Shown here piece after piece: positions 1 through 62,022 of a stretch of 64,000 bases of DNA. The notes beneath the pieces are model-generated. The model searched no databases. It worked only from the letters and a program-made list of their open reading frames with translations, and was not told the origin of the DNA. The translations under genes were made by a program, and so were the position numbers. Every line of letters starts with the position of its first letter. Within the stretch, counting starts at the first letter, position 1. The stretch is from contig CAVUNY010000006.1 of NCBI GenBank assembly GCA_963743005.1, positions 109,976 to 173,975 of the forward strand, in the 5' to 3' direction. The stretch is from an uncultured Chloroflexia bacterium. Lineage in GTDB: Bacteria; Chloroflexota; Anaerolineae; Anaerolineales; Anaerolineaceae.

Positions 1-1187
1 ATGACCTGATTTACGCCATTGTCGTCCACTGCCTGCAGCGCTACGGCGAAAGCGAGGTATTGGGCTGGTATTGGGAGTTGTGGAACGAGCCGGACGGCAT
101 GTATTGGAAAGGGACGATCGATGAGTTCAATAAGCTCTATGATTACACCGCCGCCGCGGTCAAGGCGGCTCATCCCCAGGCCCGCGCTGGCGGACCGGCG
201 ACCACCGGCCCAGGTCGCGGCCGCAACGCCGACCATTTTCTCGATCGCTTCCTGGAACACTGCGTTCATGAGACCAATAACCTGACCGGAAAAACCGGCG
301 CCCCGCTGGATTATGTCAGTTTTCACGTCAAGGGCGGCGGCTACCGGGCCGATCCAAAAAATAAGCCGGTCGATCCCCCTTCTACCCAATGGCTCATGCA
401 GCAGGTTGCGACCGGGTATGAGATCATCTCTCGCTACCCCGGCTTAAACCAGTTGGAATGCGTGCTCTCCGAAGCCGACCCCGATGGTTGGGCTGCGGGC
501 GGCGCCTGGGATAACAAGGCCTTGAATTTCCGCAATACCCAGTACTACGCCAGCTATGTGGCCTGCACGTTTGATAAAGTGATCCGCTTTGGGCAGGAAA
601 AAAAGTGGGATGTTCGCCCGCTGACCTGGGCCTTTCTGTTCGTCGCCGAGCGCTGCTTTGAAGGGACGCGCGCCTTCTCCACCCAGGGCATCGATAAAGC
701 GGTCTTCAATCTCTTTAAAATGTATGCCAAAATGGGCACCCAACAGGTCGAATTGACCAGCAGCGGCGCCCAGGATTCACAGGCCTATCCCGATCGTTGG
801 GGTTACGGCGCGCCCCCGGATGTGTCTGGTTTTGCCACCCTGACCGGGGAGAAAAGCCTGGAGGTGCTGGTTTATAACCACCATGATGATTGGAACCGGA
901 CGGGTGACACCCAGGTTGATATTGATTTGGTAAATCTGCCCTTCCAGGGCAAGAAACTGACGCTCAAGCATTACCGCATCGATGCCGCCCACAGCAATGC
1001 CTATTCCGAATGGGTGCGGCAGGGCCAGCCGATGTACCCGGCGGGCGGCCAATACGCTGCCATTAAAGCGCGCGATGGCCTGGAGATGGTGTCTGCCCCA
1101 CAATCGCTGGTGGTAGATGATAGCCACGCAAAGCTGGTGATCACGCTGCCCGTTCACAGCGTTTCATTACTGGTTGTGGAGGGTTAA
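1..1187 (+). CDS. Clan GH-A glycoside hydrolase, GH39-like. It is 5'-truncated at the window edge; the frame starts at nt 3.
   Basis: The frame-3 translation from nt 3 (DLIYAIVVHCLQRYGESEVLGWYWELWNEPD...) is colinear with the downstream paralog. It carries the WNEPD catalytic-type motif and FHVKGGGY. The family assignment is from motif memory, not a search. Confidence 0.6.
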   Translation, partial: DLIYAIVVHCLQRYGESEVLGWYWELWNEPDGMYWKGTIDEFNKLYDYTAAAVKAAHPQARAGGPATTGPGRGRNADHFLDRFLEHCVHETNNLTGKTGAPLDYVSFHVKGGGYRADPKNKPVDPPSTQWLMQQVATGYEIISRYPGLNQLECVLSEADPDGWAAGGAWDNKALNFRNTQYYASYVACTFDKVIRFGQEKKWDVRPLTWAFLFVAERCFEGTRAFSTQGIDKAVFNLFKMYAKMGTQQVELTSSGAQDSQAYPDRWGYGAPPDVSGFATLTGEKSLEVLVYNHHDDWNRTGDTQVDIDLVNLPFQGKKLTLKHYRIDAAHSNAYSEWVRQGQPMYPAGGQYAAIKARDGLEMVSAPQSLVVDDSHAKLVITLPVHSVSLLVVEG

Positions 1188-7534: not shown

Positions 7535-8329
7535 ATGAAATACGGCGTGTGTGGTTTTCTCACGGCCAAAAATGCGGATGGGACCGAGTTTGACCTGATC
7601 CCGGCAGCCAAAGTAGCCGGCTATGACTACCTTGAAATGCCGCTTTCGACCATAGCAGCCCTCAGCGAGGCCGAATTTGGCGAAGTGAAGCAAAAAGTGG
7701 TTGAGAGCAAGTTCCCGGTTGAAGCCTGCAACGTGTTCTTTCCGCGCAGCCTGCGCCTGACCGGCCCGGATGTGGATTGGAAGCAGGTCGAAGACTATGT
7801 AAAGCTAGCCCTGGGACGCGCCGGGCAGCTGGGCGCCAAAGTGGTGGTCTTTGGCAGCGGCGGTTCGCGCCAGGTGCCCGAGGGTTTCCCGATGGAGCAG
7901 GCCTGGCTGCAGCTCGTCCAACTGCTGCGCATGATCGAGCCCATTGCCGCCGAAAACGGGATCGCGGTGGTGATCGAGCCGCTGAACGATAAAGAGACCA
8001 ACATCATCCATACCGGCGCCGAGGGTTTTGCACTGGCAAAGCTCGTCGACCGGCCGCATATCCGCCTGCTGCTTGATCTGTTCCACATGTCACTGATGAA
8101 AGAGGATTTTGGCATCGCGGTTACCGCCAGCGGTTATGTGCGCCACGCCCATTTTGCCAAGCCAGAGGGTCGGGTGTATCCCAGTGAGATAGAAGACGAG
8201 TTCAAGGCCTTTTTTGGCGGGCTCAATCGCGGCGGTTATGACGGGCGGGTGAGCGTCGAAGCTGGTTTTTCGACCTTTGCCGTGGACGCGCCGCGGGCGC
8301 TCAGCGTGATGAAGCAGGCCAACTGGTAA
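7535..8329 (+). CDS. Sugar phosphate isomerase/epimerase, paralog of 3723-4523.
   Basis: GGAGG RBS, then the ATG at 7535. It is roughly 45% identical to the upstream paralog (…VVVFGSGG… IEPLN…). Confidence 0.7.
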   Translation: MKYGVCGFLTAKNADGTEFDLIPAAKVAGYDYLEMPLSTIAALSEAEFGEVKQKVVESKFPVEACNVFFPRSLRLTGPDVDWKQVEDYVKLALGRAGQLGAKVVVFGSGGSRQVPEGFPMEQAWLQLVQLLRMIEPIAAENGIAVVIEPLNDKETNIIHTGAEGFALAKLVDRPHIRLLLDLFHMSLMKEDFGIAVTASGYVRHAHFAKPEGRVYPSEIEDEFKAFFGGLNRGGYDGRVSVEAGFSTFAVDAPRALSVMKQANW

Positions 8330-8335
8330 TAAATA

Positions 8336-8410
8336 ACCACGGAGGCACCGAGGTCACGGAGAAATTCTTTATTGCTATTTTTCTCTCTGTGTTCTCTGTG
8401 TCTCCGTGGT
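8336..8410 (+). repeat. Long imperfect hairpin built from CACRGAG/CTCTGTG heptads. G-U pairs make the fold strand-specific on the + RNA. It is a member of a dispersed intergenic family.
   Basis: The 5' arm ACCACGGAGGCACCGAGGTCACGGAGAAA (8336-8364) pairs with the 3' arm TTTCTCTCTGTGTTCTCTGTGTCTCCGTGGT (8380-8410). The 3' arm's 22-mer is identical to 37979-38000. Confidence 0.6.
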
Positions 8411-8432
8411 ATATTTCTCCTGGAGGTAAGGA

Positions 8433-9834
8433 ATGACCACGATAGCATTCATTGGGGCAGGCAGCACCGTTTTTGCCAAGAACTTGCTCGGCGATATTCT
8501 CAGTTTCCCCGAGCTGGCGGATGCCACCATTCGTTTGATGGATATCGATCCCGTGCGCTTGCATACCACCCAACTGGTAGCCGAGCGCATCGCGCGCGCC
8601 CTGGGCGCGCACCCGACGATTGAAACCACCCTCGACCGGCGCACCGCGCTTAAGGGGGTGAACTACGTCATCACCATGTTCCAGATTGGCGGTTACCGCC
8701 CGGGCACGGTGATCGATTTTGAGATCCCCAAGAAGTATGGGCTGCGCCAGACCATCGCCGATACCCTGGGGATCGGTGGAATCATGCGCGCCCTGCGCAC
8801 CATCCCCGTGCTGCTGGACCTGAGCCGGGAGATGGAAGAGCTCTGCCCGGATGCCACCCTGCTCAACTACGTCAACCCGATGGCCATGAATATGTGGGCG
8901 GTGAACCGCGCCAGCGGAATTAAGAATGTCGGCCTGTGTCATTCGGTGCAGGGCACCGCCATGCAGATGGCGCATGACATACAGATCCCCGGCGAGGAGG
9001 TCAATTATTTGTGCGCCGGGATCAACCACATGGCCTTCTACTTGAAGTTCGAGCGTAAAACGAAAGACGGGGTCGAGGATCTTTACCCGCGCCTGCGCCA
9101 GGTGGTATCCGAAGGACGGGTGCCCGATTGGAACCGGGTGCGCTATGAGATGTTCATGCGCCTGGGTTATTTCGTGACCGAATCCAGCGAGCACTTCGCC
9201 GAATATACCCCCTGGTTTATCAAACGCGACCGGCCCGACCTGATCGAGAAGTTCAATGTGCCGCTGGATGAGTATATCCGCCGCTGCGAAGTACAGCTGG
9301 CCGGGTGGGGAGTCGACCAAAGATGTGGTTGAGAACCCTGATCTGCCCGTGAATACCGACCTCATCCGCCAGAAGCTGCTGGCAGCCGGCGGCACCGAGC
9401 ATGACGTGCTCTGGTTGAGCCGCATGGCGACCAATTTCGACGAGATTACCCAATCGCACGAATACGGTTCGTATATCATCCACAGCCTGGAGACCGGCAT
9501 CCCGCGCGTGGTGTACGGCAACGTGGCCAACCATGGCCTGATTGATAACCTGCCGGCGGGCTGTACGGTGGAAGTGCCTGTCCTGGTGGATAAGAGCGGC
9601 CTCCAGCCGACCCATATCGGCAGCCTGCCCCCGCAGCTTGCGGCGCTGATCCAGACCAATGTCAACGTCCAGTCGCTGACGGTGGAAGCCACCCTAACCG
9701 GCAAGCGGGACTACATCTACCACGCCGCCATGCTCGACCCGCACACCGCTGCTGAGTTGGATCTGGACCAGATCTGGCACATGGTCGACGACCTGATCGA
9801 GGCCCACGGCGACATGCTGCCAAAATTCCATTAA
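8433..9834 (+). pseudogene. GH4 family alpha-glucosidase/alpha-galactosidase (NAD+/Mn2+-dependent), interrupted by a +1 frameshift near 9256-9332.
   Basis: The N-terminal part (8433-9332) has MTTIAFIGAGSTVF and GLCHSVQGT. The C-terminal part continues in the +1 frame (9256-9834) with …GNVANHGLIDNLP…. The two pieces sum to a normal ~465 aa GH4 protein. The shift site includes the GGGTGGGG run at 9303-9310. Confidence 0.75.
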
Positions 9835-16087: not shown

Positions 16088-16223
16088 CTGATATATATAA
16101 GTATATATCATAATTAAAGCGAGTTAAGACATTAAAAATTGACCAGAGTAAGCTGAGCCGCTGTGTTTTTTCCGGAAAAGTACTTGACTCTGATTAATTA
16201 CGATATATACTTATATATATCAG
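16088..16223. promoter_or_regulatory. Perfect 22 bp inverted repeat pair (CTGATATATATAAGTATATATC … GATATATACTTATATATATCAG) separated by 92 bp of AT-rich DNA, in the divergent GH4-pfkB / gntR intergenic region.
   Basis: The two copies are 22/22 complementary (16088-16109 and 16202-16223). The second copy ends 8 nt before the GntR start. Confidence 0.6.
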
Positions 16224-25564: not shown

Positions 25565-26002
25565 ATGAAATTCTTATATGATGATCTGCAAAAAATATTG
25601 GCGCTTCACAATAAATTTCTGTCCGGTGAAACCGGTGGAGAAAAGGCTGACCTTAAAGACGCTGACCTGTACGGCGCCAACCTGGAGGGTGCAAATCTGA
25701 AAGATGTAAACCTGGAAGGAGCCAACCTGAAGCGATCGGTTCTGATGAATGCTAACCTGGAGGGCGCTAACCTGGAACGAGCTAATTTCAAGCATGCCAT
25801 CCTTGTATGTGCGAATCTGCATGGGGCATGCTTGAAGTCTGCCGGGTTGAAAGGTGTCAATCTGGAAGGGGCTGATTTGCGCGGCGCGGATCTTTTGGGC
25901 GCAGACCTGGAGAATGCCGAACTGGTTGGGGTTATGTTTGATGACTTTACAAAATGGCCTGACCAATTCGACTTAAGGGCACTTTATCCAAAAGGCGCAT
26001 GA
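25565..26002 (+). CDS. Pentapeptide repeat protein.
   Basis: Tandem A(D/N)LxG repeats run through residues about 30-130. Confidence 0.85.
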
Positions 26003-33085: not shown

Positions 33086-33853
33086 TCAGCCCGGTTGGCT
33101 GGTGTGAATCACGGTATATAGATGTTTTTCCGGATCGTAATTGATGAGAATTACCTCCTCACCGCGGCGGATGGGCTGCTCTGCCTGGGTAACGGCGAAC
33201 ACGCTGATCAGTGTGCCAGCCGCGTCCCGCAGATGGACCATCCCGTAGCGTTGGTCGACAAACGGGCTGATCACGGTCCCTCGCCGGCCGACCATGGCAT
33301 GGGCTGATGTGACGGTGGTGCTGACCGGGGGAAGGGTCCGGCCAATCGCCCGGGCGATACGTGAACTGACCAGGCTGCCCAATCCCAGGGAGACCGCCAG
33401 CGCGGCTGCCATGATTGGAACCGGGTAGGTGCCGAGAACTCTGACGGCAAATCCATTGAAGATCCAACCGGTCAGCCCCACCGAGCCGAACAGCAGCAGC
33501 AAGGTCACCAGCAGCGGCGCTCGCCCTACACCCAGGTAAGCCAGGATCGAAAAGCCCAATTCTGCGGCGGTTTCACCGGCGGAATGGACGTCACCCGTTT
33601 CTCCCAGGTCTAAATCGTGATCCAGATGACCCTCCAGGTCATGATCCAAATCGCCATCCAGATCGTGATCCAATTCATGGTCAAAGTCGCCATCCAGGTC
33701 GTGATCCAGGTCCCCCTCCGCCTCAGAGTCCGGATCGTGATCGCCGCCCAGGCCAATCCACTGCAGAGCCGCCATCAGCAGGCATACCGCCAGCAGAAAG
33801 GTGAACGGCAGGTTATACCAGGCCAGCATAAAGGTCAGGATTGTAGACAACAT
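33086..33853 (-). CDS. NfeD-family membrane protein (flotillin partner, YuaF/YqiJ-like) with an internal (DHDL)n acidic His-rich repeat.
   Basis: TM segments and a C-terminal OB-fold-like region are present. Residues about 38-88 are DLDHDLDGDFDHELDHDLDGDLDHDLEGHLDHDLDL. Confidence 0.7.
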   Translation of the reverse strand: MLSTILTFMLAWYNLPFTFLLAVCLLMAALQWIGLGGDHDPDSEAEGDLDHDLDGDFDHELDHDLDGDLDHDLEGHLDHDLDLGETGDVHSAGETAAELGFSILAYLGVGRAPLLVTLLLLFGSVGLTGWIFNGFAVRVLGTYPVPIMAAALAVSLGLGSLVSSRIARAIGRTLPPVSTTVTSAHAMVGRRGTVISPFVDQRYGMVHLRDAAGTLISVFAVTQAEQPIRRGEEVILINYDPEKHLYTVIHTSQPG

Positions 33854-36883: not shown

Positions 36884-37097
36884 GGTCAATCTCCTTGAAT
36901 GATGATCGATAGTGAAATGATCACTGTTTTTCATCCTTTGTGGCCTTCGTGTTCTTTGTGGTAGGATTTTCATCCCCTATGATAAATTGTCGTCAAGAAA
37001 CCTTTCATCTAATTTAGTCATTCAAATTGCATTTCCACTGTGCTTCTGAGTCTCAGTGGTTAAATTAGCCCAGGCAGGCCATGCGCCGGGCTAACCC

Positions 37098-37829
37098 TTA
37101 CACAATCCGTCCCTTTTCCACCTCGCGGATTTCGACGATCACCGGGCAGTGGTCACTGTGCTGCAGCCAGCCCTGCGGGTCGCCGACCTGCACGTTTGCC
37201 AACCGGCGAAGCCAGCGCGAGGGGATATACACATAATCGATATGCCCGTGGCGGTCCCGTTTGCGTCCGTGGAAAAAGGTCCAGCGTTTTTCCTGCCCCT
37301 GGCGTTCGTGGTAAAACTGGTGGTAAGCGCTGATCAACCACAGGTTGTGCAGGTCCAGGGTCAGGGTGCTGTGGTTTCCCAGGCGCGATTTAGGCGTGGT
37401 CAGGGTGCTGCTGTTGAAATCGCCGATCAAGACCGTATCCGCCGCCTGGATGAATTCGCGATATGCACCGACCGCCTGGTACACCTGCCCACTGTAACTG
37501 TGGCGGTCATCTTTATGGTCCATCGCCCACACCGCGATCAGCTGAAAGGTGTAGGGCGACACCACCCGGATCGGAATGCAGTGTCGGATGGACGGGTCGT
37601 ATTCTGCCAGCGGCTCGATGGTCAGATCCGTCCAGGAGAAAACCCCCAGGCCGCGCGTTGGTTTTTCGCCGAACCACAGTATGCTCGTTGGCGGCGGCCC
37701 GCCTTTCCAGGAAATGCGGTCGGGATGCTCACATTCCTGGATCACCGCCAGATCGGGCGCCATGGCGGCGATGGGCAGAAATTTCTTTCGGAAAGCCCCC
37801 TGGCAGTTCCAGGTAACCAGCTTAATCAT
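37098..37829 (-). CDS. Endonuclease/exonuclease/phosphatase (EEP) family protein.
   Basis: The protein has MIKLVTWNCQGA… and …QECEHPD… EEP motifs. The start may be further upstream. Confidence 0.65.
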   Translation of the reverse strand: MIKLVTWNCQGAFRKKFLPIAAMAPDLAVIQECEHPDRISWKGGPPPTSILWFGEKPTRGLGVFSWTDLTIEPLAEYDPSIRHCIPIRVVSPYTFQLIAVWAMDHKDDRHSYSGQVYQAVGAYREFIQAADTVLIGDFNSSTLTTPKSRLGNHSTLTLDLHNLWLISAYHQFYHERQGQEKRWTFFHGRKRDRHGHIDYVYIPSRWLRRLANVQVGDPQGWLQHSDHCPVIVEIREVEKGRIV

Positions 37830-37978
37830 GGTCCTATTATAAGCGGTTGTAGTAAGGGTTGTATTTACCATAAAAATACACCCTTTCAATGTGTCCGATT
37901 GGACTTCATACCTGATCTCGGGTATGATTCATCATAAGCCATGAGCACTTTTATAAGCCACGCATAGTGAATTTCCCA

Positions 37979-38000
37979 GTGTTCTCTGTGTCTCCGTGGT
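37979..38000 (+). repeat. Second copy of the 22-mer GTGTTCTCTGTGTCTCCGTGGT, 23 nt upstream of the nitroreductase start.
   Basis: It is identical to 8389-8410. Confidence 0.7.
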
Positions 38001-38022
38001 TAGATCTATTAAGGAGTTTACA

Positions 38023-38580
38023 GTGGAAGTTATTGATGCCATTTTCTCTCGCCAATCGATTCAAACCCTGCGCCCGGACCCTGTGCCGCGCGAACTGGTC
38101 GAGCGCCTGCTGGCGGCAGCCGTTCAAGCCCCCAATCACTACCGCGTGCGCCCGTGGCGCTTCGTTGTCTTGCAAGGTCCGGCCCGCGAGCGCCTGGGGG
38201 ACGTCTTCGCGGAAATACTGAGTACGGCTCACCCCGACGCGCCCCCGGCTACCCTGGATAAGGAACGGGCCAAGGCGCTGCGCTCGCCGCTGTTGATCGC
38301 CGTGGGGGTGGACACCCCCGCCGATCCGCGGGTGGTCGAGGTGGAAAATATTTGCGCCGCCGCCGCCGCCGCCGAAAACCTGCTGCTCGCCGCGAATGCC
38401 CTCGGCCTGGCGGCCAAGTGGCGCACCGGCGACGCGGCCTACAACCCACGGGTCAAGGCCTTCTTAGGTTTCCAACCCGACCAGCATTTGGTTGCTTTTC
38501 TTTATATTGGCTTCCCCGAAGGCGAAACTGCGCCGGTCGAACGACTCACCTTTGAGGATCGCACGGTCTGGATGGAATAA
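38023..38580 (+). CDS. Nitroreductase family protein.
   Basis: An AAGGAG RBS precedes the GTG at 38023. The protein has …RPWRFVVLQG… and a GAAAAAENLLLAANALGL nitroreductase signature. Confidence 0.8.
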   Translation: MEVIDAIFSRQSIQTLRPDPVPRELVERLLAAAVQAPNHYRVRPWRFVVLQGPARERLGDVFAEILSTAHPDAPPATLDKERAKALRSPLLIAVGVDTPADPRVVEVENICAAAAAAENLLLAANALGLAAKWRTGDAAYNPRVKAFLGFQPDQHLVAFLYIGFPEGETAPVERLTFEDRTVWME

Positions 38581-45547: not shown

Positions 45548-45571
45548 GGGGGGCCTGGTTTTGTCATTTAT

Positions 45572-45598
45572 CACAGAGACGCAGAGACTCAGAGAAAA
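45572..45598 (-). repeat. CACAGAG-heptad element (on the minus strand TTTTCTCTGAGTCTCTGCGTCTCTGTG) directly upstream of the methyltransferase gene.
   Basis: Same family as 8336-8410, 37979-38000 and 61789-61862. Confidence 0.55.
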
Positions 45599-45645: not shown

Positions 45646-47566
45646 GCGGGGTTTCAATGATTTATGAGATTTATGCTGTTATAAATGACTCCCCTGCAAA
45701 AAGGAGTAGACAAAAGAGGTAAAAGTTTAATATAATAGGTCAAGCCATTCTACACCATATCCATCCAGGTCGTGAAACATGTTCCGAAAAAACACCCGCC
45801 ATTTACAGCCGGTATTGATCAGCAACGTTCAAGATTTACCTGAAAAACACCGCAAGCGTTTGGAAAACTCATGGGCGGGGGTTTTCTACCGGGAGACCTT
45901 CAGCCGCCTGGATGAGCGGCCCTTTGAGGTGCTGTATGCGGATTGTCCCTCTCGGCCGAATGTACCGGTGAATGTGCTGGTCGGGCTGGAAAGTCTGAAG
46001 GCCGATTTCGGCTGGAGCGATGAAGAGATGTATGATGCCTTTACCTATGACATGCAAGTACGCTACGCGCTGGGGTATCAGCAGTTAGGTGAGGGGGACT
46101 TTGATCTGCGCAGCCTGTATTACTTTCGCGAGCGGGTCAGCCGATATAGGCAGGAGAAGGGGATCAATCTAATCGAGAAAGCTTTTGAGCAAGTGACCGA
46201 CGAGCAGATTCAGGCCTACCAGCTCAAGACGGGCAAACAGCGCACGGACAGCACTCAAATCGCCAGCAACATTCGCGAAATGAGCCGGCTGCAGTTGTTG
46301 GTGGAGGTGATCCAGCGCGTACACCGCATGTTGAAGGAAGAAGACCAGAAAGGCTATGCGGAAGCCTTTGCGCCGTTTATCCTGGGGCATTCCGGGCAAT
46401 ATATCTATCATCTCAAGGGGCAGGACACGAGCGAGCATCTCCAGAAGATCGGGGAATTGATGCAGCGCATCCTGGGCGAACTGCAAAACGCATATAGCCA
46501 AGAGCCGGTCTACCAGATGCTGGAACGGGTGTTTGGCGAGCATTATCGGGTGGATGAGCAGGTCGTGAAAACCAAAGTGGACAAAGAATTGAGCGCCAGC
46601 AGCCTGCAATCGCCCGACGATCTGGAAGCGACCTACCGGGAGAAAGGTCACAAGGCCTACAAGGGTTACGTGGCCAATCTGACCGAGACGTGTGACCCGG
46701 AAAATAAGCTGCAATTGATCACCAAAACCGCGGTGGCGCCCAATAGTGTCGATGATGCCAAACTGATGGAAGAGGATGTAGCTAACTTGAAAGAGCGCAC
46801 CGACCTGAAAACGCTCTATACAGATGGCGGCTACGGCAGTCCCGACGCGGACCAGACCCTGCGGGATCACAAAGTGGAACAAATCCAAACCGCGATCCGC
46901 GGTCGGGTGCCAAGCAGCGAAAAACTCAACCTGGCGGATTTTGAAATCCAGCAGGCCGAGAGTGGCAAGCCCACCCAGATCACCTGCCCGCAGGGACAGA
47001 AGGTAGCGGTTCACCCCAGCAGCCAGAAAAAAGGGTATGTGGCTCATTTTGACCTGCCTATCTGCCAGACCTGTCCGTTCTTCCAGACGAGTTGTCCGGC
47101 CCAACCTGGAAAACGCGACCCGAGGTTACGCCTGAACTTTAGTGAAGCTCAGGCAAATGTGTCGCAGCGCAGACGACGCAGTCTGGCTTGTCTGCAAGAA
47201 GGACGAAACTTACGGGCGGCCGTTGAAGCAACAGTGCGGGAAGTCAAACACCCCTTCCCGGCCAGCAAGTTGCCCGTGAGAGGCCGATTTCGGATAGCCT
47301 GTATAGTCGCCGGTTCAGCCCTGGTCACCAATGCGCACCGCATCCAACGCTACCTGGTCGCCAAAATAAAGTTGGAAAATGAGCAAAAGAAGGCCCAAAC
47401 AGAGCAGGAATGCGCCCAAGATGGGCATGCGGTTGTGTTTTTTGCTTCGCTGAAAGCGGTTTTTGAGGCCGGACTAGCCCTTTTGGGATGGCGGAAGCGA
47501 AGTTTCAGTTTTTAATGTTCGAGTTCTTGCAGTGGAGTCATAAATGAATGAAGATTTATAAATCAT
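45646..47566 (+). mobile_element. Insertion sequence (about 1.9 kb) with imperfect roughly 40 bp terminal inverted repeats and a single DDE transposase gene. Size and N-terminal domain suggest IS1182/IS5-like.
   Basis: IRL 45646-45687 pairs with IRR 47528-47566: the outer 10 bp AATGATTTAT/ATAAATCATT are perfect, and the inner block …ATGACTCCCCTGC / GCAGTGGAGTCAT is conserved. Confidence 0.65.
45779..47515 (+). CDS. DDE transposase (578 aa) with an InsH-N/DUF772-like N-terminus.
   Basis: The N-terminus …LPEKHRKRLENSWAGVFYRE… is typical of IS1182/IS5-group transposases, with a C-terminal Cys cluster. Family assignment is from memory only. Confidence 0.65.
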   Translation: MFRKNTRHLQPVLISNVQDLPEKHRKRLENSWAGVFYRETFSRLDERPFEVLYADCPSRPNVPVNVLVGLESLKADFGWSDEEMYDAFTYDMQVRYALGYQQLGEGDFDLRSLYYFRERVSRYRQEKGINLIEKAFEQVTDEQIQAYQLKTGKQRTDSTQIASNIREMSRLQLLVEVIQRVHRMLKEEDQKGYAEAFAPFILGHSGQYIYHLKGQDTSEHLQKIGELMQRILGELQNAYSQEPVYQMLERVFGEHYRVDEQVVKTKVDKELSASSLQSPDDLEATYREKGHKAYKGYVANLTETCDPENKLQLITKTAVAPNSVDDAKLMEEDVANLKERTDLKTLYTDGGYGSPDADQTLRDHKVEQIQTAIRGRVPSSEKLNLADFEIQQAESGKPTQITCPQGQKVAVHPSSQKKGYVAHFDLPICQTCPFFQTSCPAQPGKRDPRLRLNFSEAQANVSQRRRRSLACLQEGRNLRAAVEATVREVKHPFPASKLPVRGRFRIACIVAGSALVTNAHRIQRYLVAKIKLENEQKKAQTEQECAQDGHAVVFFASLKAVFEAGLALLGWRKRSFSF

Positions 47567-61767: not shown

Positions 61768-61788
61768 AAGGATTCCCTTTTTATTCTA

Positions 61789-61862
61789 ACCACGGAGTGC
61801 TTTGAATTATCGTTCACCTGAAAGGAGGAAAATCCTACCACAGAGTCACAGAGGCGCAGAGG
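61789..61862 (-). repeat. Two elements of the CACAGAG/CTCCGTGGT family in the GH130 5' region (61837-61862 and 61789-61798).
   Basis: The sense-strand read is CCTCTGCGCCTCTGTGACTCTGTGGT … CACTCCGTGGTTAGAATAAAAAGGGAATCCTT-ATG. Compare TCTCCGTGGTTAGATCT… upstream of the nitroreductase. Confidence 0.55.
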
Positions 61863-62022
61863 TTTCGTCGTTATTTTAGATCCAAAATGGATCCCATTCT
61901 TTTAAACAAAACCAGGAAGAGCAGGTGGAGGGGCGAGGCCAGGGCAGAACTGCCGGATGTAAATTCCTCTTTTTGCCTCGCCCTTACCATTCTGAAAGGG
62001 GTAGGGGATGCGATGAGGTCCT

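What the first reader, a model, noticed from the sequence alone, without database searches (positions are those of the whole stretch)
8336..8410. Dispersed CACAGAG-heptad / CTCCGTGGT sequence family placed just upstream of four genes in sense orientation
The identical 22-mer GTGTTCTCTGTGTCTCCGTGGT occurs at 8389-8410 (22 nt before the GH4 start) and 37979-38000 (23 nt before the nitroreductase start). Related copies sit before the methyltransferase (45572-45598, minus strand) and GH130 (61789-61862, minus strand), always on the sense strand of the downstream gene. At 8336-8410 the element forms a roughly 30 bp imperfect hairpin whose mismatches are all G-U pairs on the + RNA only, so it looks like a strand-specific RNA structure. 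It could be a REP-like element, a shared 5'-UTR regulatory RNA, or a transcription-factor site. I do not recognise it as a known motif.
Basis: seen in the sequence. Interest (0 to 1): 0.6.

Follow-up and report, generated by a model that had tools for sequence, protein, structure and literature searches.

The report
Foldback repeats tied to GxxExxY nuclease
The motif is a copy of a hairpin-forming DNA repeat, built from about three 8-base units per arm, that sits between genes in many bacterial phyla and some archaea and whose full-length versions carry a small uncharacterised nuclease gene; it is not a shared gene-control signal.

Summary
The sequences are real and far beyond chance.

The window holds at least six copies, not four. 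Two missed copies (36932-36975 and 37036-37063) lie antisense to their neighbouring genes.

- **Family:** 8336-8410 is an ORF-less hairpin of a very large repeat family. Each arm has 2-4 tandem units of 8-9 nt (CRCNRAG) and ends in TTCACC.../...GGTGAA. It occurs in over 120 viral contigs and over 120 genomes of many phyla, including cultured Bacteroides and a Methanoperedens contig.
- **Placement:** 87% of 549 arms are intergenic and sit tight against stop and start codons.
- **Orientation:** Solo arms occur in both orientations. Across 119 hairpins there is no sense-strand RNA bias. Partner arms show no covariation.
- **Linked gene:** Every arm pair 370-530 nt apart encloses a GxxExxY (PF13366) PD-(D/E)XK nuclease gene. 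Conversely, 69 of 80 GxxExxY genes fetched by protein alone carry such arms.
- **Mobility:** Close Anaerolineales relatives have empty sites at copies A and B, so these copies are insertions.

Most likely they are non-autonomous or decayed copies of a nuclease-associated selfish foldback element. I found no match in Rfam and no description in the searched literature.

The parts
8336..8364 (.). Copy A, left arm: ACCACGGAGG CACCGAGG TCACGGAGA, three tandem units in the CRCNRAG orientation. It begins 6 nt after the TAA stop at 8327-8329.
   Evidence: (nhmmer E=3e-7).
8365..8379 (.). Copy A, A/T-rich loop of the hairpin. It contains no ORF.
8380..8410 (.). Copy A, right arm: TTTCTCTCTGTG TTCTCTGTG TCTCCGTGGT. 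It ends 22 nt before the GH4 ATG at 8433, just upstream of the GGAGG ribosome-binding site. The whole copy is absent in relatives L327-L330, where the spacer is TAA-GGAGATCGA-ATG.
36932..36975 (+). It is a solo arm of variant units (CTTTGTG G CCTTCGTG TT CTTTGTGGT) followed by the tail AGGATTTTCATCC. It lies between two minus-strand genes, so it is antisense to both.
37036..37063 (+). Degenerate solo arm CACTGTG CTTCTGAG TCTCAGTGGTTAA. Its outer end faces the stop of the minus-strand gene 37098-37871, so it is antisense. A better-preserved ortholog is at L332 8999-9032.
37929..38010 (+). Copy B, an insertion of about 75-80 nt between the promoter-like site (TGGACT-17-TATGAT, 37900-37928) and the AAGGAG ribosome-binding site of the nitroreductase gene (start GTG 38023). 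The right arm at 37975-38003 is well preserved. The left arm at 37936-37971 (AAGCCATGAGCAC..AAGCCACGCATAGTGAA) looks decayed; that reading is an inference. The copy is present in L334, L332 and L331 and absent in L333.
45570..45598 (-). Copy C, a solo arm of mixed units. On the minus strand it reads TTTTCTCTGAG TCTCTGCG TCTCTGTGAT and ends 22 nt before the methyltransferase ATG (45547). A decayed ortholog is in L333. In L331 the same position holds a D-type copy instead.
61788..61865 (-). Copy D, composite. It has a three-unit arm (CCTCTGCG CCTCTGTG ACTCTGTGGT), the tail AGGATTTTCCTCCTTTCAGGTGAACGATAATTCAAAGCA, and a second terminal unit CTCCGTGGTTAG, upstream of the GH130 ATG (61767). The arm and tail recur at 36932-36975. 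The arm and tail also recur, over a longer stretch, upstream of the methyltransferase gene in relative L331.

Best explanation
The window's CACAGAG/CTCTGTG motifs are copies of a widespread interspersed foldback (palindromic) DNA repeat.

**Anatomy.** Each arm is an array of usually three tandem units with an 8 or 9 nt period. The unit is C[A/G]C-N-[A/G]AG on one strand. The outer terminus is conserved: TT(C/A)ACC... on the left and ...GGT(G/T)AA on the right. Two arms in inverted orientation enclose a centre of variable length and sequence.

**Full-length members.** These are about 0.45-0.55 kb and carry one gene in the centre. It encodes a GxxExxY protein of about 130 aa (Pfam PF13366 PDDEXK_3, TIGR04256). 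This is a minimal Cas4/RecB-like PD-(D/E)XK nuclease with invariant E...D...ExK residues.

**Window copies.**
- A (8336-8410) is an intact ORF-less hairpin.
- B is a hairpin with a decayed left arm.
- C, D, 36932-36975 and 37036-37063 are solo or composite arms.

**Shown.**
- Membership of the repeat family.
- Intergenic placement tight against gene ends.
- Both orientations occur.
- Insertion polymorphism against close relatives.
- Two-way association with GxxExxY genes.

**Inferred.**
- The unit arrays are recognition sites for the nuclease, because the constraint acts on unit sequence and not on pairing.
- The nuclease drives spread or homogenisation of the copies.
- ORF-less and solo copies are non-autonomous or decayed derivatives that survive only where they do not break genes. 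Such places are the gap between a stop codon and the next ribosome-binding site, or between a promoter and a ribosome-binding site.
- Any effect on the neighbouring genes is a by-product.
For: **Family and distribution**
- The pattern hits over 120 IMG/VR contigs and over 120 genome contigs of many phyla.
- 31 strict inverted pairs have variable centres.
- There are 549 arms in 1.96 Mb. Most have 3 units, and the period is 8 nt (575 cases) or 9 nt (418 cases).
- It is present in cultured isolates. In Bacteroides finegoldii an annotated GxxExxY gene is flanked by TTCACCACAGAGG... and ...CTCTGTGGTGAA. Variants occur in Gemmatirosa, Bernardetia and Sphingomonas.
- It is present on an archaeal contig that also carries the methanogenesis marker 2 protein.

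**Placement**
- 87% of arms lie outside called genes, although 85% of the DNA is coding.
- Hairpins lie a median 18 nt from stop codons and 35 nt from start codons.

**Sequence, not structure**
- There is no sense/antisense folding bias.
- Partner arms are no more complementary to each other than to the arms of other elements: 80.3% against 79.9%.

**Nuclease link**
- All 5 arm pairs lying 370-530 nt apart enclose a GxxExxY gene. All 6 GxxExxY ORFs in the motif-selected loci abut arms.
- Among GxxExxY genes fetched by protein alone, 69 of 80 carry at least 3 units in their flanks. The same test gives 2-7% in window controls.
- More distant GxxExxY genes are flanked by inverted arrays of other short units.
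- The AlphaFold model has pLDDT 92.6 and its best structural match is Cas4 SSO0001.
- G35, E40, D80, E90 and K92 are invariant.

**Mobility**
- Copies A and B are filled in the window and empty in relatives with 85-88% identical neighbouring proteins.
- Site C holds a different subtype in L331.
- A 924-nt block with a GxxExxY gene is present in L328 and absent in L327.
- Chloroflexi CFX6 has a GxxExxY gene with CACGGAG-type arms like those of the window.
Against: - No GxxExxY gene lies in the 64 kb window. The source genome could not be examined.
- No target-site duplication is visible at the filled/empty comparisons. A hydrolytic PD-(D/E)XK nuclease alone is not known to carry out strand transfer. 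The mobility mechanism is therefore unknown.
- I did not find identical copies of one element at several sites of one genome. Protein P0357 was found on many contigs, but all 10 places shown were the same locus.
- Unit subtype tracks nuclease similarity only weakly: 59.5% against 58.5% identity. Specific co-evolution between nuclease and repeat is not shown within this subfamily.
- The sampling is biased. The 240 loci were chosen by motif. The 80 protein loci are the best matches to a query taken from a CACAGAG-type element.
- Gene positions come from my own heuristic gene caller.
Confidence: 0.7

Rival explanations
1. The hairpin repeats are the habitat rather than the derivative. The GxxExxY gene would be a homing-endonuclease-like gene that invades the loops of pre-existing hairpin repeats, using the conserved arms as recognition site and as short homology. 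The hairpins themselves would spread, or arise, by some other route.
For: - The gene always sits in the centre, between the two arms.
- ORF-less hairpins and solo arms far outnumber gene-carrying copies: 168 hairpins and 197 solo arms against 5-6.
- No target-site duplication is seen.
- A simple nuclease fits homing better than transposition.
Against: - No other enzyme recurs next to the arms.
- Distant GxxExxY genes carry different unit arrays of the same build. Repeat and gene therefore travel together.
- Hairpins do appear at new sites, so something must move them.
Confidence: 0.18
2. The hairpins are host-serving structural elements, and the nuclease genes are passengers. Possible roles are mRNA stabilisers, RNase III processing sites, transcription attenuators or terminators between genes. 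Such roles have been proposed for REPs and for cyanobacterial STRR hairpins.
For: - Very stable hairpins sit in co-directional gene arrays, directly after stop codons and before ribosome-binding sites.
- Similar roles have been proposed for STRR hairpins (PMC2670836) and for REPs (PMC3733652).
Against: - No T-tract terminator signature is found at copy A.
- There is no strand bias in RNA stability and no compensatory changes between arms.
- Close relatives run the same operon with a 9-nt spacer and no hairpin.
- Solo and decayed arms are common.
Confidence: 0.08
3. The element would be a shared sense-strand 5'-UTR regulatory RNA, or a transcription-factor operator, that co-regulates the four downstream genes.
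For: - Four copies end 22-26 nt before start codons in sense orientation.
- Copy B lies inside the predicted 5'-UTR.
- A relative has another sense solo arm 26 nt before a start codon.
Against: - Two more copies in the window are antisense.
- Family-wide, 50 solo arms are antisense and 34 are sense.
- The hairpins are symmetric, so they present the same arm to either flank.
- No covariation or strand bias is seen.
- Copies are absent upstream of the orthologous genes in close relatives.
- The same arms occur across phyla, in phage-like contigs and in an archaeal contig, next to unrelated genes.
- No Rfam family matches.
Confidence: 0.04

Closest known systems
REP / REPIN elements with RAYT transposases
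   Same: - Short, intergenic, hairpin-forming interspersed repeats, often in inverted pairs and tandem arrays.
- A small nuclease-type gene is flanked by the repeats in inverted orientation.
- ORF-less copies are far more numerous.
- They lie between co-directional genes and after stop codons (PMC3733652).
   Different: - REPs are 20-40 bp units that are each an imperfect palindrome with an unpaired GTAG or CGTC tag. Here each arm is a direct array of 8-9 nt units with no tag.
- The associated protein is a PD-(D/E)XK nuclease, not an HUH Y1 (IS200-like) transposase.
- Nearly the same arm sequence occurs across many phyla, whereas many of the described REP families are confined to one or a few species (PMC3733652).
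STRR (short tandemly repeated repetitive) sequences of filamentous cyanobacteria
   Same: Intergenic hairpins built from short tandem repeats, for example between hupS and hupL. Their function is unknown (PMC2670836).
   Different: - The STRR unit is 7 bp. The unit sequences are different (from my own knowledge).
- STRRs are described only in filamentous cyanobacteria (PMC2670836).
- No associated gene has been described. I did not test whether STRRs flank GxxExxY genes.
23S rRNA intervening sequences carrying an S23p ORF (for example Coxiella, Leptospira)
   Same: A very small selfish element of about 0.4-0.7 kb. It consists of a long stem formed by terminal inverted repeats that encloses one small ORF (PMC4990558).
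   Different: - The ORF family is different (a four-helix bundle, not PF13366).
- IVS elements sit inside rRNA helices.
- None of the 20 GxxExxY loci I scanned lies in rRNA.
MITEs and eukaryotic foldback transposons
   Same: Non-autonomous copies with terminal inverted repeats that outnumber autonomous ones. Foldback elements have arms made of short tandem repeats (from my own knowledge).
   Different: - No DDE transposase partner is seen.
- No target-site duplication is seen.
Cas4 / RecB-family nucleases
   Same: The GxxExxY model's best structural match is Cas4 SSO0001 (E=3e-4). The next matches are lambda-exonuclease and RecB-type domains. There is weak HMM similarity to Cas4.
   Different: - The protein has about 130 aa.
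- The four-cysteine signature of an Fe-S cluster is not conserved.
- It is not encoded in CRISPR loci here.
- It is flanked by its own repeats.

Membership tests
GxxExxY-associated unit-array foldback repeats (family defined here) | The arm is at least 2 tandem units C[AG]CN[AG]AG (or the complement) with an 8-9 nt period. | tested here: met
   The window has 7 such arrays against 0.37 expected, and 6 of them are intergenic. nhmmer hits lie at 8331-8367, 8382-8414, 37979-38006 and 61831-61865.
GxxExxY-associated unit-array foldback repeats (family defined here) | Conserved outer terminus: ...ACC on the left and GGT... on the right, flanked by TT(C/A) and (G/T)AA. | tested here: met
   The window shows AACCACGG / CCGTGGTAT (copy A), GTGGTTAG (copies B and D) and GTGGTAGG (36960 and copy D). 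Copy C has GTGAT instead.
GxxExxY-associated unit-array foldback repeats (family defined here) | Intergenic position with the outer end against a gene boundary, and presence/absence differences among close relatives. | tested here: met
   All six window copies are intergenic. Empty sites exist for copy A (L327-L330) and copy B (L333).
GxxExxY-associated unit-array foldback repeats (family defined here) | A GxxExxY (PF13366) gene in the same genome, flanked by arms of the same type. | not testable with these tools
   There is none in the 64 kb window, and the source genome is not available. Relatives do have such genes: L328 and L329 (PDDEXK_3, other unit type), Anaerolineales L185, and Chloroflexi CFX6 L339 with CACGGAG arms.
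REP / REPIN-RAYT | A 20-40 bp imperfect palindrome with an unpaired GTAG or CGTC tag at one end (PMC3733652). | tested here: not met
   Arms are direct arrays of 8-9 nt units. The termini are TTCACC and GGTGAA, with no GTAG or CGTC tag.
REP / REPIN-RAYT | The associated gene is a RAYT (HUH Y1 transposase). | tested here: not met
   The only recurrent enclosed gene is PF13366/TIGR04256 GxxExxY.
Integron attC sites | R'' (RYYYAAC) and R' (GTTRRRY) core sites at the two ends. | tested here: not met
   The ends of copy A read AAATAACC and GTGGTATAT. The family consensus GGTGAA contains no GTT. A few copies, such as L079 (GCCTAAC...GTTAGGC), fit by chance.
Intrinsic (Rho-independent) terminator | A G+C-rich stem followed by a T-run. 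| tested here: not met
   No terminator-like site lies in 8200-8500 or 37800-38100. The consensus after the stem is (G/T)AA.
Any Rfam 15 RNA family | A match at the family's gathering score. | tested here: not met
   The window, eight repeat-rich loci and 20 GxxExxY loci give no match at any repeat. At the E-value threshold only generic miRNA-hairpin models match, far below their gathering scores.
MITE derived from a DDE insertion sequence | Terminal inverted repeats, a target-site duplication, and a related full-length IS with a transposase. | tested here: inconclusive
   Inverted termini are present. No duplication is seen at three filled/empty comparisons, but the flanks have diverged. No DDE transposase recurs between arms. 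The transposase at 45779-47515 has no matching arm on its far side.

The most novel reading that the evidence does not exclude
GxxExxY genes together with their unit-array arms would form a previously unrecognised class of autonomous mobile or homing element. At about 0.45-0.55 kb it would be among the smallest known. It would be driven by a minimal Cas4-like PD-(D/E)XK nuclease that reads arrays of 8-9 nt units. It would have spread by horizontal transfer through most bacterial phyla, some archaea and their viruses. This would give a function to a protein family of more than 20,000 clusters at 50% identity.
Probability: 0.35. Interest if true: 0.85.

Novelty: new variant of a known kind. Interest (0 to 1): 0.68.

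Why it matters
- **A function lead for a very large orphan protein family.** GxxExxY/PF13366 has 20,763 clusters at 50% identity. It is listed as 'function unknown, multiple transfers' in the PD-(D/E)XK survey (PMC3424549).
- **An unusually conserved short repeat.** Nearly the same 25-30 nt arm occurs from Bacteroides to Chloroflexota to Methanoperedens.
- **A warning for annotation.** The arms sit exactly where ribosome-binding sites, leaders and terminators are expected. They read open in most frames. They seem to break short-read assemblies. They can therefore be mistaken for regulatory motifs and can distort gene starts.
- **A possible tool.** If the nuclease proves to be sequence-specific for the units, it could be a compact DNA-recognition module.

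Tried and rejected
- **Rfam.** Scans at the gathering and E-value thresholds found nothing relevant.
- **Literature.** Full-text search for six arm sequences found nothing relevant. Searches for GxxExxY, PDDEXK_3, PF13366 and TIGR04256 gave only passing mentions. A foldback/nuclease keyword search gave nothing.
- **Exact look-up of a window protein** in the contig index: not on record. The source genome was not among the fetched loci.
- **attC reading.** It was suggested by L079, but the family consensus rejects it.
- **Transposase at 45779-47515 as partner of copy C.** Rejected, because there is no second arm.
- **Long-range arm pairs (1.5-4 kb)** enclose unrelated genes such as MurD and HerA. 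They are probably separate elements.
- **Unit subtype against nuclease phylogeny.** Only a 1% difference in identity.
- **P0357, found on 26 contigs.** The 10 places shown were the same locus in different samples, not different sites.
- **First AlphaFold run** with a shallow alignment failed (pLDDT 44). The second run, with diverse representatives, worked.
- **Other searches.** No solved structure was found by sequence. PADLOC and PHROGS gave only weak Cas4 similarity. Cultured phages have no GxxExxY gene.
- **Untested idea.** TGYG repeated every 8-9 nt resembles the elemental RNA-polymerase pause consensus. I did not test this. The lack of orientation bias argues against it.
Full report
**1. 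Checking the observation**

The 22-mer GTGTTCTCTGTGTCTCCGTGGT occurs exactly at 8389-8410 and 37979-38000. No match appears in 100 shuffles, even with three mismatches allowed. CTCCGTGGT occurs five times against 0.28 expected. The neighbouring genes are as described: GH4, nitroreductase, methyltransferase and GH130.

8336-8410 is a strong hairpin. As RNA the + strand folds at -45.3 kcal/mol and the - strand at -36.7 kcal/mol. Both have z-scores near -6.8.

The details differ from the description:
- The stem has 25 bp.
- There are three G-U pairs on the + strand and one on the - strand.
- Two transversion mismatches pair on neither strand.

The list of copies was also incomplete. I scanned with a generalised unit (CT[CT]NG[CT]G repeated every 8-9 nt). 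This finds seven arrays against 0.37 expected. One is a missed arm at 36936-36960. A further degenerate arm lies at 37036-37063. Both are on the + strand between two minus-strand genes, so both are antisense. The claim 'always sense' therefore fails inside the window.

**2. Anatomy**

Each arm is a direct array of short units. In copy A the left arm is ACCACGGAGG CACCGAGG TCACGGAGA. The right arm is TCTCTGTG TTCTCTGTG TCTCCGTGGT. Because the element is palindromic, it reads ACCAC...GTGGT on both strands.

**3. The family is very large and crosses phyla**

Thirty-one of the hits are inverted pairs 60-215 nt long, with centres that vary in length and sequence.

A three-unit pattern hit more than 120 contigs of GTDB species genomes. 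By record title these are:
- Acidobacteriota, Planctomycetota, Chloroflexota and Desulfobacterota
- Verrucomicrobiota, Armatimonadota, Gemmatimonadota and Bacteroidota
- Cyanobacteria, several classes of Pseudomonadota, Nitrospirota and Omnitrophota
- Spirochaetes and Bacillota
- three archaeal bins

Several hits lie on megabase-size or closed chromosomes. All 80 rows shown (of 120 fetched) were MAGs, so I checked isolates. A Bacteroides finegoldii replicon has an annotated GxxExxY gene between radA and an FAD-dependent protein gene. It is flanked by TTCACCACAGAGGACGCAGAGGACACGGAGG and CTCTGTGACCTCTGTGTCCTCTGTGGTGAA. Gemmatirosa, Bernardetia and Sphingomonas isolates carry variants. The Methanoperedens-labelled contig carries the methanogenesis marker 2 protein 1.5 kb from its hairpin.

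**4. Census in 240 loci plus the window (1.96 Mb)**

I built an nhmmer profile of the arm. It finds 549 arms at E<=0.05.
- 420 arms have three units.
- The period is 8 nt in 575 cases and 9 nt in 418.
- The median hairpin is 106 nt long.
- The consensus is tTTT-CTCTGTG-(N)Y-CTCTGTG-Y-CTCYGTGGT-(G/T)AA.

I wrote a codon-usage gene caller, which reproduces the window's genes sensibly.
- 87% of arms lie outside genes, although 85% of the DNA is coding.
- 168 arm pairs form hairpins. Their gene contexts mirror the background: 124 co-directional, 13 divergent and 11 convergent.
- Hairpins lie a median 18 nt from the adjacent stop codon and 35 nt from the adjacent start codon.
- In phage-like contigs the hairpins fill the gaps between consecutive structural genes.

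**5.

- *Orientation.* Among solo arms in co-directional contexts, 34 are sense and 50 are antisense. What is constant is that the outer (GGT) end faces the nearest gene boundary. This is expected if solo arms are what remains of a hairpin that once filled the spacer.
- *Strand-specific RNA.* Of 119 non-redundant hairpins between co-directional genes, 60 fold better in sense and 57 in antisense (Wilcoxon p=0.78). G-U counts are 389 in sense and 366 in antisense.
- *Covariation.* The two arms of one element are 80.3% complementary. Arms of different elements are 79.9% complementary (p=0.30).

The constraint is therefore on the sequence of the units, not on pairing. That points to protein recognition sites in inverted orientation rather than a structured RNA. 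No Rfam family matches.

**6. The associated gene**

Among arm pairs with longer centres, every pair 370-530 nt apart (5 of 5) encloses a protein of about 130 aa. Pfam assigns it to PF13366 (PDDEXK_3) and NCBIfam to TIGR04256, 'GxxExxY protein'. The five loci come from Bacteroidota, Acidobacteriota, Verrucomicrobiota, Chloroflexota and one other source. All six GxxExxY ORFs in the motif-selected loci abut arms. No other small gene recurs next to arms.

I then ran the reverse test. I fetched 80 GxxExxY genes from metagenomes by protein similarity alone.
- 23 have a CACAGAG-type arm on each side by the profile. About 14 more have an arm on one side.
- Almost all the rest carry arms of the same build with variant units: CGCAGAG, CGCCGAG, CACGAAG or CGCGGAG. 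The termini are still TTCACC.../...GGTGAA.
- In all, 69 of 80 have at least three units in the flanks. The same test gives 2.3% for random window intervals, 6.8% for window genes and 23% for genes in the motif-selected loci.

More distant family members are flanked by inverted arrays of quite different short units. L241 has CTTTGTG. L242 has CGCAGAT. L244 and L245 have a 12-nt A/T-rich unit. The window's relative L328 has CAGGATA, with five tandem hairpins.

**7. The protein**

- The family has 20,763 clusters at 50% identity with E<=1e-3. It includes fused two-domain forms, which suggests a dimer.
- G35, E40, D80, E90 and K92 are invariant across 83 diverse members. E40, D80 and E90-x-K92 are the classical PD-(D/E)XK catalytic set.
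- The AlphaFold model is confident (pLDDT 92.6).
- Its best solved match is Cas4 SSO0001 (E=3e-4). Lambda-exonuclease and RecB-type nucleases follow, and an archaeal Holliday-junction resolvase (Hjc) is a weaker match (E=0.07).
- PADLOC gives only weak Cas4 similarity and PHROGS nothing. No solved relative is found by sequence.
- The PD-(D/E)XK survey lists PDDEXK_3 as function unknown, found in prokaryotes and viruses, with 'multiple transfers, mixed clades' (PMC3424549).

**8. Evidence that the window copies are insertions**

Source names on homologous proteins place the window in Anaerolineales, phylum Chloroflexota.

*Site A.* Relatives whose neighbouring protein is 86-88% identical (L327-L330) have ...CTGGTAA-GGAGATCGA-ATG. 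That is a 9-nt spacer between the sugar-phosphate isomerase/epimerase-family gene (Pfam AP_endonuc_2) and GH4. The window and L326 (95% identical) carry a hairpin of about 94 nt there, and the two copies have diverged.

*Site B.*
- In L333 a promoter-like TGGACT-17/18-TATGAT is followed almost directly by AAGGAG and the start codon.
- The window, L334, L332 and L331 have about 75 extra nucleotides there, ending in the arm.
- Copy B therefore lies in the 5'-UTR only because that is where it inserted. Its left arm appears decayed.

*Site C.* L333 has a decayed ortholog. L331 has a D-type copy at the same place, sharing the tail GGTAGGATTTTC...CAGGTGAACGAT with window copy D.

*Other differences between relatives.*
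- L330 has a solo arm before the racemase gene that the window lacks.
- L332 has a well-preserved arm where the window keeps only the degenerate arm at 37036-37063.
- L328 and L327 share identical neighbouring proteins. They differ by a 924-nt block with five hairpins and a GxxExxY gene, which replaces 8 nt.
- No target-site duplication is visible in any of these comparisons.

**9. Mechanism**

Shown: this is a selfish-looking, horizontally spread repeat. Its full-length form carries a nuclease gene. Its copies come and go in intergenic spacers.

Inferred: the unit arrays are binding sites for the dimeric nuclease. Cleavage at or near the conserved GGTGAA termini, followed by host repair or copying, spreads or homogenises the copies. 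ORF-less hairpins and solo arms are non-autonomous or decayed products.

Three further points:
- How a hydrolytic nuclease would achieve insertion at new sites is unknown.
- A serious rival is that the gene homes into pre-existing hairpins.
- A host role for individual copies in mRNA processing or stability cannot be excluded. Nothing in the sequence data requires it.

**10. Comparison with known systems**

- *REP/REPIN-RAYT* is the closest analogue in logic. The defining GTAG/CGTC-tagged palindrome and the HUH transposase are both absent (PMC3733652).
- *Cyanobacterial STRR hairpins* share the 'hairpin of tandem short repeats' build. They are 7-mers and have no known gene (PMC2670836).
- *23S rRNA intervening sequences* share the 'stem plus one small ORF' design (PMC4990558).
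- *attC sites, intrinsic terminators and DDE-type MITEs* fail on their defining features.

I found no description of the arm sequences or of the GxxExxY-repeat link in Rfam 15 or in the searchable literature. That library omits most subscription journals, so prior description cannot be excluded.

**11. Verdict**

- The REP-like reading is right in spirit. The regulatory-RNA and operator readings are not supported.
- The window copies are ordinary members of a family that is itself remarkable and apparently undescribed.

My scores are interest 0.68 and confidence 0.7 in the overall explanation. Confidence is about 0.9 for family membership and the nuclease association. It is about 0.4-0.5 for mobilisation by the nuclease.

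Noticed in passing
window 8433-9834: The GH4 gene is split into two overlapping ORFs (8433-9332 and 9256/9325-9834). The orthologs in relatives L326-L330 are intact at 466 aa. This is either a frameshifted pseudogene or an assembly error, and it lies directly downstream of hairpin copy A.
   Followed up: partly
window 45779-47515: A DDE transposase gene (DDE_Tnp_1 / DDE_Tnp_1_6, 578 aa) sits next to copy C. Relatives L333 and L331 have other genes at this position, so it looks like a lineage-specific IS insertion. No unit-array arm lies on its far side.
   Followed up: partly
L328 14030-14955 (relative of the window), compared with L327: A 924-nt block is present in L328 and L329 and absent in L327 and the window. 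It holds five tandem hairpins of about 100 nt built from CAGGATA-type units, plus a PDDEXK_3 gene. It replaces 8 nt between the sulfate transporter gene and the ParA-like gene and rewrites the last codons of the transporter.
   Followed up: partly
L200 6000-6952 (Planctomycetaceae MAG): Four tandem copies of a hairpin element of about 233 nt. The centre of each contains a second, nested inverted array of CGCAGAG-type units.
   Followed up: no
P0361-P0376 and L329 8396-9184: Many GxxExxY family members are fused two-domain proteins of about 260-295 aa. This hints that the single-domain proteins act as dimers.
   Followed up: no
L340-L348 (Logan contigs carrying P0357): Many short-read contigs stop about 35 nt after the GxxExxY gene, at the flanking repeat. 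The arms seem to break assemblies.
   Followed up: no
window 16088-16223: An A/T-rich inverted repeat with 41-nt arms (88% complementary, 54 nt apart) in an intergenic region. It is unrelated to the unit-array family.
   Followed up: no
window 3-1187 and 1288-2937: Two adjacent paralogous genes about 70-76% identical at the DNA level, offset by 1744 nt. The second corresponds to the GH39 gene of the relatives, which show only one copy in the called genes.
   Followed up: no
window 33615-33742 and 25676-25822: Coding-region tandem repeats with 12-nt and 15-nt periods. The second looks like a pentapeptide-repeat gene. Both are unrelated to the finding.
   Followed up: no
L136 4587-4633: An Acido-Lenti-1 RNA (Rfam RF01687, 52.6 bits) lies about 300 nt from a hairpin copy in a Terriglobia MAG. 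It is probably unrelated.
   Followed up: no
window 8389-8410 compared with 37979-38000, and orthologs in L326 and L334: The two window arms share an identical 22-mer, yet each differs at several positions from its own ortholog in close relatives. This would fit homogenisation between copies within a genome. With so few variable positions, chance is not excluded.
   Followed up: partly
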